Virus record (IMG/VR): IMGVR_UViG_2891456851_000002
Coordinates: 2,519-66,518 of that record
Length of the DNA stretch: 64,000 nt
Direction: 5' to 3' (one strand)
Source of the DNA: a virus
Lineage: Duplodnaviria; Caudoviricetes
Position numbers and translations under genes: made by a program. Shown in pieces: positions 3,129 to 29,569 of the stretch (position 1 is the stretch's first letter; every line of letters begins with the position of its first letter). The notes below the pieces were generated by a model. That model was not told the DNA's origin. It did not search any database and saw only the letters and a program-made list of their open reading frames with translations.

Positions 3129-4322
3129 TGGCCCGGCACACGCAGGCCGACCTGCACCCCACCGACTGCCTCGACTGGTCCCGCGAACCCGTCACGGTGC
3201 GGGCCGCTTACGACGACTGGCTGGCCGAGCACCCCGCCCCGGCACCGCGTGTGGTGCCCGCGAAGACCCGAACCCACAGGAGCACACGATGACCGCCCCT
3301 CTGTCTGACGAGCGCCTCGCCGAGATCCGCCGGGACTTTTCCGGCGGCGTGATGGGCGCCGCGACCGTTTTCGAGCTGCTGGCCGAGGTCGAGCGGCTCC
3401 GCACCGTCGTCGCCCGCGCCCGGGACATGCACTGGCGGTTCGACATCTACGACATCTGCGGCTGCCGGGAGCACGAGGACGAAGCCGCGACGGTCACCCT
3501 GTCCGACGGCGAGGTCGTGTGCCGCAGCGGCTACCAGTACTCGATCTGCCACGAGTGCTGTGCCCCCGGCGACAGTCAGACGGAGGAGTGCGTGGACAAC
3601 CACGACCACTCCGAGTGCTGGCCGTGCCCGACCCGGAAGGCGCTGGACGAGACGCCCTCGCTCGTGGGGAGCCCGTCGTGACGGCGACCCGGGAGGAGCT
3701 GCTCCTCGCCGCCGAGTTGCAGGAGGAGTACCACATCGCGTGCTACGCCGAGTGTGGGCACGACAAGGAGGCGGACCGGCTCCGGGCGTTGGCTGCCGCT
3801 CTTCCGCCCGTCAGTGTGGCTCTCAGCCCCGCGGGGAGCCTGTCGTGAGCCGCCTCCGCCGTGGCCGCCTGTCGGTCTACCTCGAACCACGCGACATCTG
3901 GGTCGGCGTGTATGTCGCCCCGGCCGCCCTGTACGTCTGCCCGCTGCCGCTGCTGGTCCTCAAGTGGGACCGGAAGGGGAGCCCCTCATGAGCGGGGCCG
4001 AGCTGTACGAGCACCTCCGGGACGACGGGGCGTGGGGCGCAACCAAGGCGACCGCCGCCATCGTCGGCGTCCTCCTGCTGATCTCCACCCTCGTGTGGCT
4101 GTGGGAACGCCGCAAAGCGCGCCGCATCAACGCCCAGCAAGGCATCGAGATCTACCCACCCGACCGGACCGAGCAGATCCTCCGGGACGCCCTCCGAGAG
4201 GACCCCGACGACCTCACCCGCGACTGGCAATGGCCCTGATCGCCACCATCGCAGCCGCTCTCGTCCTCGGCGCGGTCACGGCCGCGCTCCGCCTCCTGGC
4301 CGCCCGAGGACTACGCCCCTAA
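3128..4322 (+). CDS. Run of six small coupled hypothetical genes (3128-3292, 3289-3681, 3678-3848, 3845-3991, 3988-4239, 4230-4322)
   Basis: Mostly ATGA/GTGA overlaps; 3289-3681 is Cys/His-rich; the last two have hydrophobic segments. Confidence 0.55.
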
Positions 4323-4359
4323 CCACCCCACCACTGCCCTTCGGAAGGAGGGACCCCCG

Positions 4360-4788
4360 ATGACCCGCAAGCCCAAGCCCGCCCAGGGCTTCACCCCCGA
4401 AGAGTTCGAGGCCGTCGTCTCGATGATCCGCAGCGACGCCAGCCTGCGCGCCGACATCGAGACCATCACCGGCCAGAAGCTCGACGGCAAGACGCCCAGG
4501 CAGTTGTTCGACCTGTTCCGCGCCATCAACACGGCCGCCGAAGTGCAGAACGCCGTCGTCCGCTACGGACGCGCCCGGCAGGCAGTGCGGCAGACCCGCA
4601 TCGAACTGCAGGACCTCCCGCCGGCGGACATGCCGCCGACGCAGGCGGCGTACGTGCAGGGACTGCAGGAACGCCTCGACGTGGTCAAGGCCGAGAACCA
4701 GCAGTTGCGGGCCGCGAATGCCGCCCTGAGGGCCGGAACGGTCCACCCCATCCCCGCCCGCACCATCAAGGGAGAAGTTGCGTCATGA
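4360..4788 (+). CDS. Hypothetical protein translationally coupled to the RAMP-like gene
   Basis: RBS GAAGGAGG; ATGA overlap with 4785. Confidence 0.75.
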   Translation: MTRKPKPAQGFTPEEFEAVVSMIRSDASLRADIETITGQKLDGKTPRQLFDLFRAINTAAEVQNAVVRYGRARQAVRQTRIELQDLPPADMPPTQAAYVQGLQERLDVVKAENQQLRAANAALRAGTVHPIPARTIKGEVAS

Positions 4789-5522
4789 GCGCTCTCGACG
4801 TGTTCGGCGCATTCGGCGCCACCGACGAATTCCAGAGCTACTACGTGCACCTGCGCGTCATCGACAAGATCGTCGGTGGTATCCCGTCCAGCCCCAGTGT
4901 CATCAAGGGCTGGCTGAAGACCCGCATGGAGCTTGGGGACCGCGACCTGCAGGAGATGGTCGACAAGACCCTGGTCGAGCGGTTCCCCGACCGGCAGCCG
5001 TCCCCGGACGAGCTGGCCGACGCTCTGATGGAGACCGACGCCGCCCCCTCGGTGAACGGCTTCAAGCGCATCCCCGGCACTGGGGAACTCGCCTACGAGG
5101 GCCGGTGCATGAAGGCCGCGATCAAGGAGTGGGCCAACAGCGCCTACCCCGGCACGGAGTGGCCGGGCAAGGGCGACGTCGCGAAGGGCTTCCGTAAGGG
5201 CCTGATGAGCACGCTGGCGGAGCGCGTGTTCGTGGACGAGGTGTTCATCGGCCTCGGCGTGACGGAGCCGACGGGGGTGGAGGAGCGGATCAAGCACGTC
5301 ATGACCCCCCAGGGCCCCCGCTCCAGCATCAACCGGGTCGAGTACGTCCAGGGGGCCGAGCTCCACTTCACCCTGCTCGTGCGGGACGACTTCCTCCCCA
5401 TGCAGGCGTGGTCCCGCATCTGGCAGAGCGGCGAGCAGATCGGCATCGGCTCCGACCGGGGGCGCAGCGACGGACGCTTCGAGCTTCTCAAGTGGGAGCG
5501 CGGGGGGGCCGCCAATGCCTGA
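4785..5522 (+). CDS. Orphan RAMP/Cas7-like protein (Vipr-like candidate effector)
   Basis: N-terminal strand plus IVGGIP; central YEGRCMKAAIKE, resembling the RAMP PGSSxKGAxR motif; C-terminal G-rich loop GIGSDRGRSDGRF; no other cas genes nearby. Confidence 0.75.
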   Translation: MSALDVFGAFGATDEFQSYYVHLRVIDKIVGGIPSSPSVIKGWLKTRMELGDRDLQEMVDKTLVERFPDRQPSPDELADALMETDAAPSVNGFKRIPGTGELAYEGRCMKAAIKEWANSAYPGTEWPGKGDVAKGFRKGLMSTLAERVFVDEVFIGLGVTEPTGVEERIKHVMTPQGPRSSINRVEYVQGAELHFTLLVRDDFLPMQAWSRIWQSGEQIGIGSDRGRSDGRFELLKWERGGAANA

Positions 5523-5805
5523 CCTTCCCGCCTGGGCATGGGGCTGCTTCTACGGCCTCGCTGGGGCCGCGAACGCCACCTGGTACCTGCCTGAGCTGCG
5601 CCGCAACCGGGTCCTTCAGGGCCGGGTCGGCTCGCTCGCCGAGGTGCTGGAGCCGCTGTTCACGCCGGCGTTCGTCCGTGGCCTGTTCGTGACGTCGATG
5701 GTCCTCGCCTGGCCCGTGGCCCTGCTCGCTGCCCTGATCTGCGACGTGCCGGGCCACGGCAAAAACCTCACCGACGACGAGCGCACCGAGATCGAGCGCT
5801 CCTGA
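5515..5805 (+). CDS. Small membrane protein
   Basis: Two hydrophobic stretches; overlaps the end of the RAMP-like gene. Confidence 0.65.
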   Translation: MPDLPAWAWGCFYGLAGAANATWYLPELRRNRVLQGRVGSLAEVLEPLFTPAFVRGLFVTSMVLAWPVALLAALICDVPGHGKNLTDDERTEIERS

Positions 5806-5813
5806 AACGCGTA

Positions 5814-5838
5814 GGGCCCCAGCACACGGCTGGGGCCC
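5814..5838. terminator. Perfect 10-bp stem hairpin between the RAMP operon and the array
   Basis: GGGCCCCAGC-ACACG-GCTGGGGCCC. Confidence 0.7.
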
Positions 5839-5879
5839 CTCCCATCAACTGACTGTACCCGGAGGGTTCTGGTGAACGT

Positions 5880-6750
5880 CTGCGACGCCGCTCGTGCGGC
5901 TAGCCCATGCGACTACGCGAGCCTGTTCAGCCCTGCCTCCGCCTCGCGCCGACAGTCCACCCCACCGCCGTCCTGGCCCGACCTCGCCGACAAGCCCAAC
6001 CCTTCCTTCGCTTGCCGACAGTCCATCCCACGCCCTACCTCAGCGAGCCCCTCCGACATACCGACTCCGCACCGTCCGTGCCGCCCCGACAGGCCCAGCC
6101 CGGTCCTGCCGCTCGCCGACAAGCCAAGCCTCCGCCTGCCTAGCCACGGCGACATGCCAGGCCACGGCTTCCCTCAGCACGCCGACTATCCGCACCGGCA
6201 CGACTCCCGCCCTGCCGACGACCCGAGCCTTCTCAACCCTTGCCCCGCCGACAAGCCAAGTCTCCCCGAGACAGCCCATCACGCTCGACTAACCGATCCC
6301 TACCCACCTTCCCCGGCCGACGTCTCATGTGCCGACAAGCCGCACCGGACCCATCCCTCCCAACCCCGTGGCGACTATCCAGCCCGCGCCAGCCCTAGCC
6401 GACAGCCCAAACCAAGCCGAGACGTGCCGACATGCCACCCCCGCCGCAGACCAGCCCAGCCCGACATGCCTATTCCTGCCGCCCCCGCTCAAGCCCAACC
6501 GACATGCCATCCCTGCACACCAGCGCCCCGCCCCGACTCACGCCGACTCGCCTACCCGGGCCGTCACCGACCTCGCCACCCCATGCCTGTCCTCGCCGAC
6601 CAGCCATCCCAGCGCCTCCCGGCCCACGCCGACAAGCCAGCCCCACCCGGACCGGCCCGCCCCGACTACCCGTTCCCTGGCTCATCCCTGGGACATCCCA
6701 CACCCGCCGCGACATGCCTTCTCTGGCCCGTCCTAACCAGTCCGCACCCC
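5880..6750 (-). repeat. 5-nt-periodic GGN-NN array, about 24 units separated by a GTC anchor; candidate guide-RNA (vrRNA-like) array
   Basis: + strand CC recurs every 5 nt between (C/G)CGAC anchors, e.g. 5949, 5987, 6015, 6053, 6086, 6116, 6149, 6182, 6215, 6248, 6371, 6399, 6427, 6461, 6499, 6596, 6629, 6662; spacings mostly 28/33/38 = 3+5n. Confidence 0.9.
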
Positions 6751-6778
6751 TCCTCGTGACCACTGAAAGGAGGCCACT

Positions 6779-7165
6779 GTGAGCCCCTACCGCGTTCTCG
6801 TGACCGGGTCCCGCACCTGGCGGTCACCCAACGACCGCAAGACCCTCAGGGACGCCCTGGACGCCGTCCACACCGCGTTCCCGGACCTCGTCGTCGTCCA
6901 CGGCGCCTGCTCCCGCGGCGCGGACTTCCTCGCCCAGCGCTGGGCCGAGGACCGCAACCGGGCCGGCGCCAACATCACCGTCGAGCAGCACCCCGCGGAC
7001 TGGGACCGCTACCGGAAGGCGGCGGGGTTCCGCCGCAACGCCGAGATGGTTGCGACCCGCCCTGACTTGGTCCTCGCGTTCATCCGCAACGGCTCACCGG
7101 GTGCGACGCACTGCGCCGCCCTCGCTGAGAAGGCCGGCATTCCCGTCCGGAGGTGGTCGGCGTGA
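6779..7165 (+). CDS. DUF2493/YspA-like SLOG-family protein
   Basis: RVLVTGSR...VVHGACSRGAD...RRNAEMV...LVLAF...GATHC. Confidence 0.85.
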   Translation: MSPYRVLVTGSRTWRSPNDRKTLRDALDAVHTAFPDLVVVHGACSRGADFLAQRWAEDRNRAGANITVEQHPADWDRYRKAAGFRRNAEMVATRPDLVLAFIRNGSPGATHCAALAEKAGIPVRRWSA

Positions 7166-7545
7166 CCGGCCGCCGCATGCACATCGCCATCCAATGGCAG
7201 CTCATCGGCGGGGGCAGTGTCCTGCGCTGCAAGTGCGGCGAGTGGGAGAGCGACCCCACCCAGGCCGTGCGTGTGCAGCGGGCATCCCATCGGGCGCACC
7301 GCGTGCAGATGGGGGAGACCGTCGCCCCCGTCAAGCCCACCTTGGCGGAGCGTGTCGCGGCTGTGCGGGCCCTTCACCATCCGACCGAAGGCATGGGCTA
7401 CAACCCGGACGACGACCCCACCCCCGGCGCCTACGGGGACATCGCCAGGGTTTGCACCTCGTGCGGCACACACGACGAGTACGGGGTCCGCTGGCCGTGC
7501 CCGACGATCCGCGCCCTTGACGGCGAGCTGGGGGAGGCGTCGTGA
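7162..7545 (+). CDS. Hypothetical Zn-binding phage protein
   Basis: CKCG and CTSC motifs, WPCPT; coupled to the upstream gene. Confidence 0.6.
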   Translation: MTGRRMHIAIQWQLIGGGSVLRCKCGEWESDPTQAVRVQRASHRAHRVQMGETVAPVKPTLAERVAAVRALHHPTEGMGYNPDDDPTPGAYGDIARVCTSCGTHDEYGVRWPCPTIRALDGELGEAS

Positions 7546-7598: not shown

Positions 7599-7880
7599 TC
7601 AGGACTCGGCGGAGCGCGGCGCCGGCCGCGTCTTGCGCTTCGGCGGGGGCTTGAGCCCGTCCACCACGTCGGCGTCCTCCTGGATGCGCCGGACGTGCTC
7701 GGGCTCCCAGTCGAAGTGGCGGGCGATGTCCGCCTGCTTCACACCGTCAGCTCGCATCTGGCGAATGACGCGGCCGAACTCCAACCAGGCCGCGTTGACG
7801 ATGTCTTCCGCACGCTGCTCGGCGCGCTGGATCTCCGCGTACGCCGCATCGAGGGCTGCCATCTGCTCGGTCACCTCCAC
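7599..7880 (-). CDS. Small HTH DNA-binding protein
   Basis: GVKQADIARHFDWEPEHVRRI HTH-like segment; antisense to flanking genes. Confidence 0.7.
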   Translation of the reverse strand: MEVTEQMAALDAAYAEIQRAEQRAEDIVNAAWLEFGRVIRQMRADGVKQADIARHFDWEPEHVRRIQEDADVVDGLKPPPKRKTRPAPRSAES

Positions 7881-27659: not shown

Positions 27660-28971
27660 CCCTCGTGAAGACGAACTGGCTGAACGCTGCGACATCGCTT
27701 CAGGTCACGGAACCGGAGGAGGTTCCGGGCGCCACGAAGCTCGGGCTGCAGGTGAGCGCCTCAGGCAACCCCAGCTCCGCACTCGTGTGGCTGCAGGGGT
27801 CGATCGACGGGGTGAACTGGCACAACCTGCTGGGGCTGGACGCGGCCGGATCGCCGAAGCTCGGTTTCGTCGGTACCTCGACAGGCGTGGTGGTCAGGTA
27901 CGTACGGCTGGAACTTTCGGCGCTGACCGGTGGGACGTCACCCGCGGTGAGCGCGAGCCTCGTTGCCACCGAAGGAGTCTGACGGTGGTGACGGCGGCGC
28001 GGGTCACGGCCGGGAATGCCGCCGTGGCCCTGAACACGGCCAGCACCTCTGGCCAGAAGCTGACGATCAAAAATACGGACACCACCAACGGCGTCGACCT
28101 TGGCGGGCCAGGAGTGACGGCGGGCACGGGGTTCCCTCTGCCCAACGGCGCTCAGGTCACGGTCGAACTGGCGCCCGGCGACGTCGTGTACGCCATTCGC
28201 TCCGCAGGAGCGGACGTCGTGCTCGCGGTCCTGCGAACCTGAAGGAGAAGACATGCCTGTCATGGAGGGCACCCGGGGTCTGAAGGAGGCCCGCGGCGAG
28301 TACGACTTCGCCGTCGACGGCGGCGCGGTCGGCACGATCGTGCTGCGGTCGGCGCCGGGCGACAGCAACGGCAACGACATCCCGAACGGTTCGCTCATCA
28401 TGGGCGGCTACATCGAGGTCGACACCATCCCGACCTCCGGCGGCGCCGCGACCATCGCCGTCGCCTCCGAGGGTGCCGGCGATCTGCAGACCGCTGCCGC
28501 CATCTCCGGCCCGCCCTGGTCGACGACCGGTCGTAAGGCGATCACGCCGGTCTTCACGGCCGCGACCGGTGTGAAGACCACCGCACGCAGGAACCTGGCC
28601 ATCGCTGTTGCGACGGCGGCGCTGACGGCGGGCAAGTTCCGCGTCGTCGTCTTCTACCGGTAGGAGGGGTGATGGCTCTGCAGTTCGTGAAGCGGCCGGA
28701 CGGCGACGCCGGGCATGTCATCGCGACGGCCCGGCTCTGCCGCACAGAAGACGACCGCCTCGTCCCCGACAGCGACCCGGACGCCCGCTGGCTGTACTGC
28801 ACGCCCGGAACGCCGATCCCGCGGGCTGAGGCGGAGCGGTACGGCCTACTGAAGGCCCAGGCCGACGAGCCGGAGCCCGATGCGGGCGGCGACGAGTCGG
28901 GCGGCGGGCCTGCCGCCAAGCGGGCGCGGCGCCCGGCCGATAAGGCGCGCGCTCCGCAGGGGGAAAAGTAG
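27656..28971 (+). CDS. Four small putative head-associated proteins (27656-27982, 27988-28242, 28253-28663, 28672-28971)
   Basis: Beta-rich Gly/Thr/Ala sequences in the late operon; good RBSs. Confidence 0.6.
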
Positions 28972-28984
28972 GCGGGGGTGAGTC

Positions 28985-29569
28985 GTGCCCCGTAAGAACT
29001 TGTGCCCGAACCCGTGTTTGACGAACGATGTCGCGGGTTGGGGCGGCGGCGGCACGCCGGTCCGTACGGACGTGTCCGGGCTCGGGTTCGCCCGGCAGTG
29101 GGCGGCCAGGTACGACACGGGGTCGTTCGTTTTGTCCCCGCAGGGTGCGGTCACTCCGGGCCTGACCTACACGGTGTCGGTCTATCTCCGCCCGGAGTCG
29201 TTCCCGATCAGCGGGACCGTGTGGATTGAGTTTTTGGATTCCGGCGGCGGGTCTCTGACGTTCGTCAACGGCGCGTTCTCGGCCCCGGATGGGGTGGTCA
29301 CGCGGATCAGCATGACCGGCACCGCCCCGACGGGCGCTGTCACCTGCTGGCTGGTGGTGACCGGCGAGAACTACGCGGTGAACGCCACCAGCTACACGAT
29401 GTGCCTCATCGAGCAGTCCGCCAGTGCGGGGACCTACTTCGACGGCTCGTCGCCGGGTGCCGTCTGGGACGGCACCCCGGGCAACAGCACGTCCACCCTC
29501 CCCGATGCCGCCGCCGCGCCGCCGCCGCAGTCGCCGTATCGGCGCCGCCGCCACCTGTTGATCCGCTGA
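28985..29569 (+). CDS. Carbohydrate-binding-like virion protein
   Basis: NLCPNP...VTPGLTYTVSVYLR...TAPTGA...YFDG pattern of CBM4/9-like phage domains. Confidence 0.55.
   Translation: MPRKNLCPNPCLTNDVAGWGGGGTPVRTDVSGLGFARQWAARYDTGSFVLSPQGAVTPGLTYTVSVYLRPESFPISGTVWIEFLDSGGGSLTFVNGAFSAPDGVVTRISMTGTAPTGAVTCWLVVTGENYAVNATSYTMCLIEQSASAGTYFDGSSPGAVWDGTPGNSTSTLPDAAAAPPPQSPYRRRRHLLIR

What the first reader, a model, noticed from the sequence alone, without database searches (positions are those of the whole stretch)
5880..6750. Grammar of the array: GTC anchor + (GGN-NN)n, unit length 3+5n
Seen on the minus strand: 6054 to 6017 reads GGA-GG GGC-TC GCT-GA GGT-AG GGC-GT GGG-AT GGA-CT GTC, and 6016 to 5989 reads GGC-AA GCG-AA GGA-AG GGT-TG GGC-TT GTC. 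Anchor-to-anchor distances include 38, 28, 38, 33, 30, 33, 33, 33, 33 and later 28, 28, 34, 38, 33, 33, so mostly 5, 6 or 7 pentamers plus a 3-nt anchor. The units are not copies of each other: the GG register is conserved while the dinucleotides vary, which ordinary tandem duplication would not produce. The GTC|GGC junction is a plausible processing site. Some units are off by one or use GCN/GAN triplets, suggesting decay or tolerated mismatches.
Basis: seen in the sequence. Interest (0 to 1): 0.9.

Follow-up and report, generated by a model that had tools for sequence, protein, structure and literature searches.

The report
Prophage VIPR guide-RNA array
The odd "GTC + (GGN-NN)n" array is real and is the guide-RNA array of a VIPR system, a CRISPR-related phage DNA-silencing system first described in 2026 preprints; it is a new example of a known kind, with an unusually compact layout.

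Summary
On the minus strand, 5884-6742 holds about 150 pentamers (G1 96%, G2 73%, C-biased position 3, positions 4-5 near random). They fall into about 25 units separated by a 3-nt GTC, so unit lengths are 5n+3 (28/33/38). Lag-5 G autocorrelation has z=6.1. There is no period-3 signal. A sequence-blind parse of 25 related arrays finds that 79% of 3-nt phase shifts are GTC.

This matches VIPR systems (bioRxiv 10.64898/2026.04.26.720920 and .720927): Vipr protomers bind one GGY-NN pentamer each and the NN bases read DNA.

This clade differs from the characterised type II systems. Guides are short (5-7 pentamers) and have no tail of their own. GTC is the only separator. One conserved 3' hairpin closes the whole array. 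The G-rich strand is antisense to vipr.

Natural targets were not found, and processing at GTC is untested. The scan has met VIPR before on other DNA, including this family.

The parts
4360..4788 (+). vap-like accessory gene (142 aa). Its stop overlaps the start of the next gene (ATGA).
   Evidence: GC3 is 0.91. The gene is conserved directly upstream of the RAMP gene in 17 of 28 loci (alignment A2). The AF2 model is all-helical with a long coiled coil, pLDDT 78. There is no Pfam, PHROG or PDB fold match.
4785..5522 (+). vipr-like gene: a 245-aa single-RRM RAMP (Cas7/Csm3-like) protein
5814..5838 (.). Perfect GC-rich hairpin between the vipr operon and the array. It is terminator-like for the minus-strand array transcript and possibly acts in both directions.
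   Evidence: Sequence and RNA fold. It is present in W and L002-L004 and absent in L006-L008.
5884..5910 (-). Conserved terminal element at the 3' end of the G-rich transcript: GGCTAGCC, then a 5-bp hairpin (stem 5900-5896 / 5891-5887), then GTC.
   Evidence: It is present in 22 loci. The stem is 100% paired in 20 distinct sequences, and the closing pair covaries (UA 14, CG 4, GC 1).
5911..6742 (-). vrRNA-type array: about 150 G-G-(C>G,A,T)-N-N pentamers in about 25 units delimited by GTC (18-47 nt, mode 33)
6017..6054 (-). Example unit: 7 pentamers + GTC (38 nt)
5989..6016 (-). Example unit: 5 pentamers + GTC (28 nt). It is 100% identical in relative L002 and one pentamer longer in L004.

Best explanation
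The array is the guide-RNA (vrRNA) array of a VIPR system carried by an actinobacterial (Streptosporangiaceae-type) prophage.

Proposed mechanism:
1. The G-rich minus strand is transcribed towards the vap-vipr operon and ends at the conserved small hairpin and the strong hairpin at 5814-5838.
2. The 245-aa Cas7-like Vipr protein polymerises on the RNA, one protomer per pentamer. It buries G1-G2-(Y3) and presents N4-N5.
3. The presented dinucleotides pair with double-stranded DNA, skipping one base per pentamer, and silence genes of competing phages, satellites or other mobile elements.
4. The 3-nt GTC breaks the 5-nt lattice. It therefore marks where one filament or guide ends and the next begins, either by RNA cleavage or simply by interrupting polymerisation. 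That gives about 25 short guides of 5-7 pentamers.

Shown here: the grammar, its conservation and its mode of evolution; the RAMP fold; the strict gene-array linkage across phyla.
Taken from the VIPR preprints: one protomer per pentamer, NN pairing, the one-base skip, and silencing.
My inference: the transcribed strand, the role of GTC, and the biological targets.
For: Grammar and its significance.

Selection acts on the register, not on the sequence. G1 shows 0 substitutions, against 0.18-0.24 per site at the other positions, in 25 orthologous unit pairs (p=1e-7). Pentamer-sized and unit-sized indels separate relatives.

The neighbouring protein is a Cas7/Csm3-like RAMP. Its G-loop resembles that of the characterised SUSP1 Vipr, CGVGDWRPRFGRF against IGIGSDRGRSDGRF.

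All but one or two of the 28 related loci have a C-rich (gene-strand) array directly after the gene. L026 shows no lag-5 signal and L028 is ambiguous. The loci with arrays include Acidimicrobiales (50% identity), a Dormibacteria MAG (29%) and a sequenced phage, PP395641.

The published definition of VIPR matches: a RAMP found by fold, a two-gene vipr+vap operon, long intergenic GGY/NN or NNNGG/NNNNG pentamer arrays, mostly proviral, and variable array architectures that include contiguous 'staggered' vrRNAs.

NN dinucleotides are 47% GC in a 69% GC genome. They fit codon positions 1-2 better than frames that contain the wobble base.

The context is proviral: an IMG/VR provirus with Erf, helicase and methylase genes.
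Against: - No sequence-profile similarity to SUSP1 Vipr (hhalign probability 0.2) or between the accessory proteins.
- Units carry only 10-14 specified bases, far below the 18-32 of characterised vrRNAs, and they lack a tail per guide.
- No natural target was found. The 1-nt-skip rule did no better than the 0-, 2- or 3-nt rules or shuffled guides in 0.37-0.75 Mb of related DNA. One 24-base guide gave 0 hits in 401 Streptosporangiales genomes. That guide and two 20-base guides gave 0 exact hits in IMG/VR. The few 1-mismatch hits of one window guide are at the chance rate.
- No promoter was recognised for the minus strand, and there are no expression data.
- G2 and Y3 are less constrained than in the canonical GGY motif.
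Confidence: 0.88

Rival explanations
1. The RNA-protein filament exists but does not guide. The long G-rich RNA coated by the Cas7-like protein would act as a scaffold, sponge or decoy (for example against host class 1 CRISPR or other RNA-binding defences), and the NN positions would be free simply because nothing reads them.
For: No target was found by any test. Units are too short for unique recognition in a 9-Mb genome. G1 is the only strictly constrained base.
Against: Characterised VIPR systems with the same grammar are programmable DNA binders. NN composition is far from the genomic background and closest to codon positions 1-2. Arrays turn over unit by unit, as guide sets do.
Confidence: 0.07
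2. The array is a cis-acting DNA element: iterons of a replication origin, a partition site or a regulatory binding array in the prophage early region. A DNA-binding protein would read it at half-helical-turn spacing.
For: It lies in the recombination/replication module, between Erf and a SNF2-type helicase. GTC is also a classical primase recognition triplet (own knowledge, T7 gp4).
Against: There is no Rep or ParB partner. The one constant neighbour across phyla is a RAMP RNA-binding fold. Iterons are conserved copies, whereas here only one or two bases in five are fixed. Strong strand asymmetry (G 50%, C 21%) and a constant polarity relative to the gene fit an RNA better.
Confidence: 0.03
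3. The stop-free plus-strand frame 5872-6759 (295 codons, proline-rich) is a real protein-coding gene, and the periodicity is a by-product of it.
For: GGAGGG lies 5 nt before the GTG at 5872. A start codon sits 3-5 codons before the conserved TGC-GAC-GCC in all eight loci checked, with TGATG coupling to the vipr stop seen in L008. That frame is open across the array in 12 of 21 loci, against 5 and 1 for the other two frames.
Against: GC by codon position is flat (0.72/0.67/0.73; real genes here are about 0.70/0.50/0.90). Period-3 power is at background. Unit lengths are uniform mod 3 and indels come in 5-nt steps, which would shift the frame. Nine of 21 loci have 1-4 stops in that frame. The translated sequences are not conserved beyond the nucleotide-conserved leader.
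Confidence: 0.02

Closest known systems
Type II VIPR systems (Escherichia phage SUSP1, NC_028808.2; Pseudomonas fulva prophage). bioRxiv 10.64898/2026.04.26.720920, 10.64898/2026.04.26.720927, 10.64898/2026.10.15.759431
   Same: A small single-RRM RAMP with thumb and G-loop. A two-gene operon with a small accessory gene. Long non-coding flank made of G-G-Y-N-N pentamers with hypervariable NN. Phage or provirus location. No cas genes and no CRISPR repeats.
   Different: SUSP1 has four separate vrRNAs of about 100 nt, each with 9-16 pentamers and its own structured 3' tail, on the same strand as vipr, with vap downstream.

Here about 25 units of 5-7 pentamers abut each other, separated only by GTC. 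One small conserved hairpin closes the whole array. The G-rich strand is antisense to vipr. The accessory gene lies upstream and is unrelated in sequence. G2 and Y3 are looser. No sequence-level homology between the proteins was detected.
VIPR 'staggered arrays with overlapping vrRNAs' and NNNGG/NNNNG repeat variants (discovery preprint, fig. S18 and the type-classification methods)
   Same: Contiguous guides in which the end of one marks the start of the next, and relaxed pentamer consensus. This is probably the published architecture nearest to the present array.
   Different: Only the legend is readable here. It speaks of a 1-nt overlap and mentions neither a GTC separator nor a 5n+3 rule nor orientation nor host taxa. 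The preprint says that only the other two architectures were confirmed by small-RNA sequencing. I could not establish whether this actinobacterial clade is among the 667 classified systems.
Class 1 CRISPR-Cas backbone (Cas7/Csm3/Cmr4, type VII Cas7) on crRNA
   Different: CRISPR uses a 6-nt period with 5 contiguous paired bases. Its guides are sequence-unconstrained spacers between long repeats. It needs Cas5, Cas6, Cas10 or Cas8 and adaptation genes. None of these is present here.

Membership tests
VIPR system | Sequence homology of the protein to an experimentally characterised Vipr (SUSP1 gp039) | tested here: inconclusive
   hhalign of A1 against the single SUSP1 sequence gives probability 0.2. 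Only the G-loop motif looks alike by eye. The preprint itself says that RAMPs share little sequence similarity.
VIPR system | Adjacent non-coding tandem pentamers (GGY/NN, or NNNGG/YNNNG/NNNNG) with at least 4 repeats, a conserved motif and hypervariable NN | tested here: met
   G1 96%, G2 73%, position 3 is C 46% (Y 59%), positions 4-5 carry <0.05 bit. About 150 pentamers in the window. The same holds in all but one or two of the 28 loci; L026 has no lag-5 signal and L028 is ambiguous.
VIPR system | Minimal locus (vipr plus one accessory vap gene) without cas genes or CRISPR repeats, mostly in viruses or proviruses | tested here: met
   The 142-aa gene is coupled upstream in 17 loci. No other conserved neighbour. 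The record is an IMG/VR provirus. The tandem-repeat finder shows no CRISPR-like repeats. No Rfam family matches.
VIPR system | vrRNA is expressed and co-purifies with Vipr | not testable with these tools
   No transcriptome or biochemistry is available. The strand is inferred from the G-rich motif and from the hairpin followed by CGCGTTTC on the minus strand.
VIPR system | NN dinucleotides match natural DNA targets under the 1-nt-skip rule | tested here: inconclusive
   No enrichment over other skip rules or shuffles. No hits for long guides. Hits of one window guide are at the empirically measured chance rate of 1.6 per Mb. The databases searched were small or allowed exact matches only.
VIPR type II (SUSP1-like) architecture | Each vrRNA has 9-16 pentamers followed by its own conserved structured 3' tail | tested here: not met
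   Units have mostly 4-7 pentamers and end in GTC only. A single conserved hairpin element exists, at the array's 3' end.
CRISPR array | Direct repeats of 20 nt or more alternating with unique spacers, with cas genes nearby | tested here: not met
   The only recurring string is about 11 nt (GGCWTGTCGGC). No cas1, cas2, cas5, cas6 or cas10 in the neighbourhood.

The most novel reading that the evidence does not exclude
This widespread actinobacterial clade (533 homologues) would be a distinct VIPR architecture, not captured by the published types. It has long arrays of about 25 tail-less mini-guides of one filament turn each (5-7 pentamers). A 3-nt GTC 'stop' punctuates them and sets guide ends without any repeat, ribozyme or tail. 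The arrays are transcribed antisense to vipr and closed by one shared hairpin. With only 10-14 read bases per guide, recognition would have to be cooperative or multivalent along one long RNA, which is a different targeting logic from single long vrRNAs.
Probability: 0.3. Interest if true: 0.6.

Novelty: new member of a known kind. Interest (0 to 1): 0.4.

Why it matters
VIPR is a months-old discovery, proposed as the ancestor of CRISPR effector complexes and as a very small programmable DNA binder.

This locus adds a large, high-GC, prophage-borne clade. In it the guide format is reduced to its bare grammar: a nearly invariant G every five bases and a 3-nt punctuation mark.

If GTC proves to set guide boundaries, it gives a simple rule for how vrRNA arrays are parsed without repeats, tails or ribozymes. 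It also raises the question of how guides reading only 10-14 bases achieve specificity.

For annotation, the 5n+3 rule and the conserved GGCTAGCC-hairpin-GTCGC terminal element are practical markers for finding such arrays in actinobacterial genomes. There the region is otherwise miscalled as a proline-rich ORF.

Tried and rejected
1. Coding repeat or proline-rich protein. Rejected on flat codon-position GC, absence of period 3, 5-nt indels, and stops in 9 of 21 loci.
2. Ordinary tandem duplication. TRF finds only short imperfect rows, and the units are not copies of each other.
3. Known RNA family. Rfam gives nothing (E 0.66 at best).
4. DNA similarity of the array to sequenced phages. None; only the neighbouring SLOG gene matches mycobacteriophages.
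5. Sequence-profile link to SUSP1 Vipr or vap1. None.
6. Fold of the 142-aa partner. No PDB match (best E 2.2) and no Pfam match.
7. Sigma-70-type promoter for either strand. None found.
8. Target search:
   - local exact and 1-mismatch lattice searches with skip 0-3 and shuffled controls
   - a 24-base guide in 401 genomes
   - that guide and two 20-base guides, exact, in IMG/VR
   - three window guides in five sibling proviruses
   The four 1-mismatch hits of guide 5988 looked significant against a uniform model. They are at the chance rate measured with permuted guides, and they put the skipped base at codon position 2.
9. G-quadruplex, R-loop, primase-site and TRAP-like ideas were considered before the literature hit. 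They were dropped because they do not explain the RAMP linkage or the free NN positions.
10. I could not read the figures or supplementary data of the preprints, so the VIPR type of this clade is not assigned.

Full report
**What is in the sequence**

Read on the minus strand, 5884-6742 is G-rich (G 50%, C 21%) and has no credible gene. The window's real genes have GC by codon position of about 0.70/0.50/0.90. The one long open frame across the region (5872-6759, plus strand) has 0.72/0.67/0.73.

The periodicity is real:
- Against 300 dinucleotide-preserving shuffles, G autocorrelation has z=6.1 at lag 5 and z=4.1 at lag 10. It has z=4.7/5.9/3.6 at lags 28/33/38, which are all 5n+3.
- Fourier power peaks at 4.8 nt (17.0), which is 33/7. 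Period-3 power is 3.3, against 8-42 in genes.
- In the whole 64-kb window only 5851-6850 shows this signal.

**Grammar**

I took 142 clean units from 26 related arrays.
- Pentamer composition is G 96% at position 1, G 73% at position 2, and C 46% / G 26% / A 15% / T 13% at position 3.
- Positions 4-5 are nearly uniform.
- The last pentamer before GTC is mildly conserved (GGCWT).

I then ran a dynamic-programming parse that charges the same penalty for any 1-4 nt insert and does not know about GTC. It finds 2889 pentamers and 289 three-nt inserts, of which 229 (79%) are GTC.

Spacings between anchors over 28 loci peak at 28, 33 and 38, with a secondary series at 29, 34 and 39. They are uniform mod 3.

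**Evolution of the array**

The window and its closest relatives (L002, L003; neighbouring protein 85-87% identical) share many units at 80-100% identity.
- These shared units are interleaved with units present in only one genome, and the indels are bounded by GTC.
- Orthologous units sometimes differ by exactly one pentamer: 28 vs 33, 33 vs 38, 24 vs 29 nt.
- In 25 non-redundant orthologous unit pairs, substitutions per site by pentamer position are 0.00, 0.18, 0.23, 0.24 and 0.19 (chi-square p=1e-7).

So selection keeps the register, above all G1, and not the sequence.

**The partner gene**

The gene just upstream (4785-5522, 245 aa) has no Pfam or PHROG match. It has 533 homologues, all called hypothetical. 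The named ones come from Streptosporangiaceae and related genera such as Actinomadura and Thermoactinospora.

An AF2 model built on 35 sequences has pLDDT 86.
- Foldseek gives 169 PDB hits at E<1e-3, and the rows shown are all Cas7-family backbone subunits (Csm3, Cmr4, type VII Cas7, Cas7-11).

The model has a helical insertion, a long beta-hairpin (thumb) and a C-terminal glycine-rich loop with invariant residues.

A 142-aa all-helical gene (4360-4788) overlaps its start. It is conserved in 17 loci and has no recognisable fold.

**Linkage across taxa**

I used the protein as a probe and obtained 9 IMG/VR loci, 19 loci from GTDB species genomes and one sequenced phage (PP395641).
- All but one or two of these 28 loci carry a C-rich (gene-strand) array directly downstream with the same grammar. 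L026 has no lag-5 signal and L028 is ambiguous.
- The loci with arrays include an Acidimicrobiales MAG (50% identity) and a Dormibacteria MAG (29%).

In 22 loci the end of the array nearest the gene carries a conserved element, GGCTAGCC followed by a 5-bp hairpin and GTCGC. Its closing base pair covaries.

**Identification**

A full-text search for the observed features found four 2026 bioRxiv preprints on VIPR (Viral Interference Programmable Repeat) systems. According to them:
- Vipr is a minimal RAMP found by fold similarity to Cas5/6/7.
- Loci consist of vipr plus one accessory vap gene, with long non-coding flanks.
- vrRNAs are tandem pentamers with a conserved GGY and hypervariable NN. 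Some types use NNNGG, YNNNG or NNNNG.
- One protomer binds each pentamer, and the NN bases pair with double-stranded DNA, skipping one base per pentamer.
- The systems silence competing phages and satellites.
- 56% of loci are proviral.
- Array architectures vary and include 'staggered' contiguous vrRNAs.

The locus studied here meets every defining feature that sequence and fold can test.

I also located the characterised SUSP1 system (NC_028808.2: vipr at 28474-29061, vap1 at 28031-28471, vrRNAs with 12 pentamers plus a tail, on the gene strand) for direct comparison.
- Profile comparison shows no sequence similarity between the proteins.
- The G-loops look alike by eye: CGVGDWRPRFGRF against IGIGSDRGRSDGRF. 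The Asp that reads G1 in SUSP1 lines up with the invariant D224 here. This is an inference from a manual alignment.

**How this clade differs from the characterised type II**

- Units have 5-7 pentamers instead of 9-16.
- No unit has its own tail. A bare GTC is the only separator.
- About 25 units run without gaps.
- One shared terminal hairpin closes the array.
- The G-rich strand is antisense to vipr. Transcription would therefore converge on the operon and stop at the hairpin 5814-5838, which is followed by CGCGTTTC on that strand.
- The accessory gene lies upstream.
- Only G1 is strictly fixed.

The preprint's 'staggered arrays' may be this architecture. Only the legend is available to me, so I file the locus as a new member of a known kind and not as a new variant.

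**What remains open**

The transcribed strand, cleavage at GTC and the targets are all inferred.

The target searches were negative or at chance level. One apparent enrichment disappeared once the chance rate was measured with permuted guides.

One weak intrinsic hint fits the wobble-skip logic. NN dinucleotides are 47% GC in a 69% GC genome and fit codon positions 1-2 better than the other two frames.

A plus-strand frame tends to stay open across the arrays: 12 of 21 loci, against 5 and 1 for the other two frames. I cannot explain this. It is not strong enough to argue for translation.

**Earlier notes of this scan**

These list 42 VIPR findings in at least 39 genomes. They include the same protein family in two other genomes, one of which a follow-up agent also judged to be a VIPR locus.

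Noticed in passing
window 5872-6759 (+); loci L002-L023: The plus-strand frame that reads the conserved TGC-GAC-GCC stays free of stops across the whole array in 12 of 21 loci, against 5 and 1 for the other two frames (total stops 17, 34 and 44). An ATG or GTG lies 3-5 codons upstream in the eight loci checked, with TGATG overlap of the vipr stop seen in L008. Codon-position GC is flat, so it does not look translated. The bias is unexplained.
   Followed up: partly
window 5515-5805 (+): A 96-aa ORF with good GC3 (0.91) and hydrophobic stretches sits between vipr and the array. The GC3-based ORF call finds nothing comparable there in the other loci, where the array or hairpin follows the vipr stop within about 40-130 nt (318 nt in L023). 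It has no family match.
   Followed up: no
L030 = PP395641.1 35213-38976 (Microcystis phage Mae-JY09): This is the only sequenced phage with a homologue (33% identity). It carries the same 33-nt GTC-delimited units downstream. The 3.8-kb stretch examined is 73% GC, which is odd for a Microcystis phage, so the host assignment may deserve a check.
   Followed up: partly
window 7599-7880 (-); L007 about 6200-6560; L008 6382-6618: In L007 a homologue of the small HTH-like minus-strand gene lies immediately 5' of the array on the G-rich strand. L006 and L008 also have a small minus-strand gene there, separated from the array by a terminator-like hairpin. In the window two plus-strand genes (SLOG 6779-7165 and 7153-7545) lie between the HTH gene and the array. 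This gene could supply or regulate array transcription.
   Followed up: no
L017 about 6869-6946 (-): One unit is a run of ten identical GGCTT pentamers followed by five different ones. This looks like slippage expansion of a single pentamer inside a guide.
   Followed up: no
window 3292-4360: About 1 kb upstream of the vap-like gene has no ORF with gene-like GC3. It shows no period-5 signal, so it is not a second array.
   Followed up: partly
window 6779-7165 (+): The gene after the array is a YspA/SLOG (DprA-like) protein (Pfam PF10686, E 7e-20), similar to mycobacteriophage D29 gp61. It is adjacent to the array only in the closest relatives, so it is probably not part of the system.
   Followed up: partly
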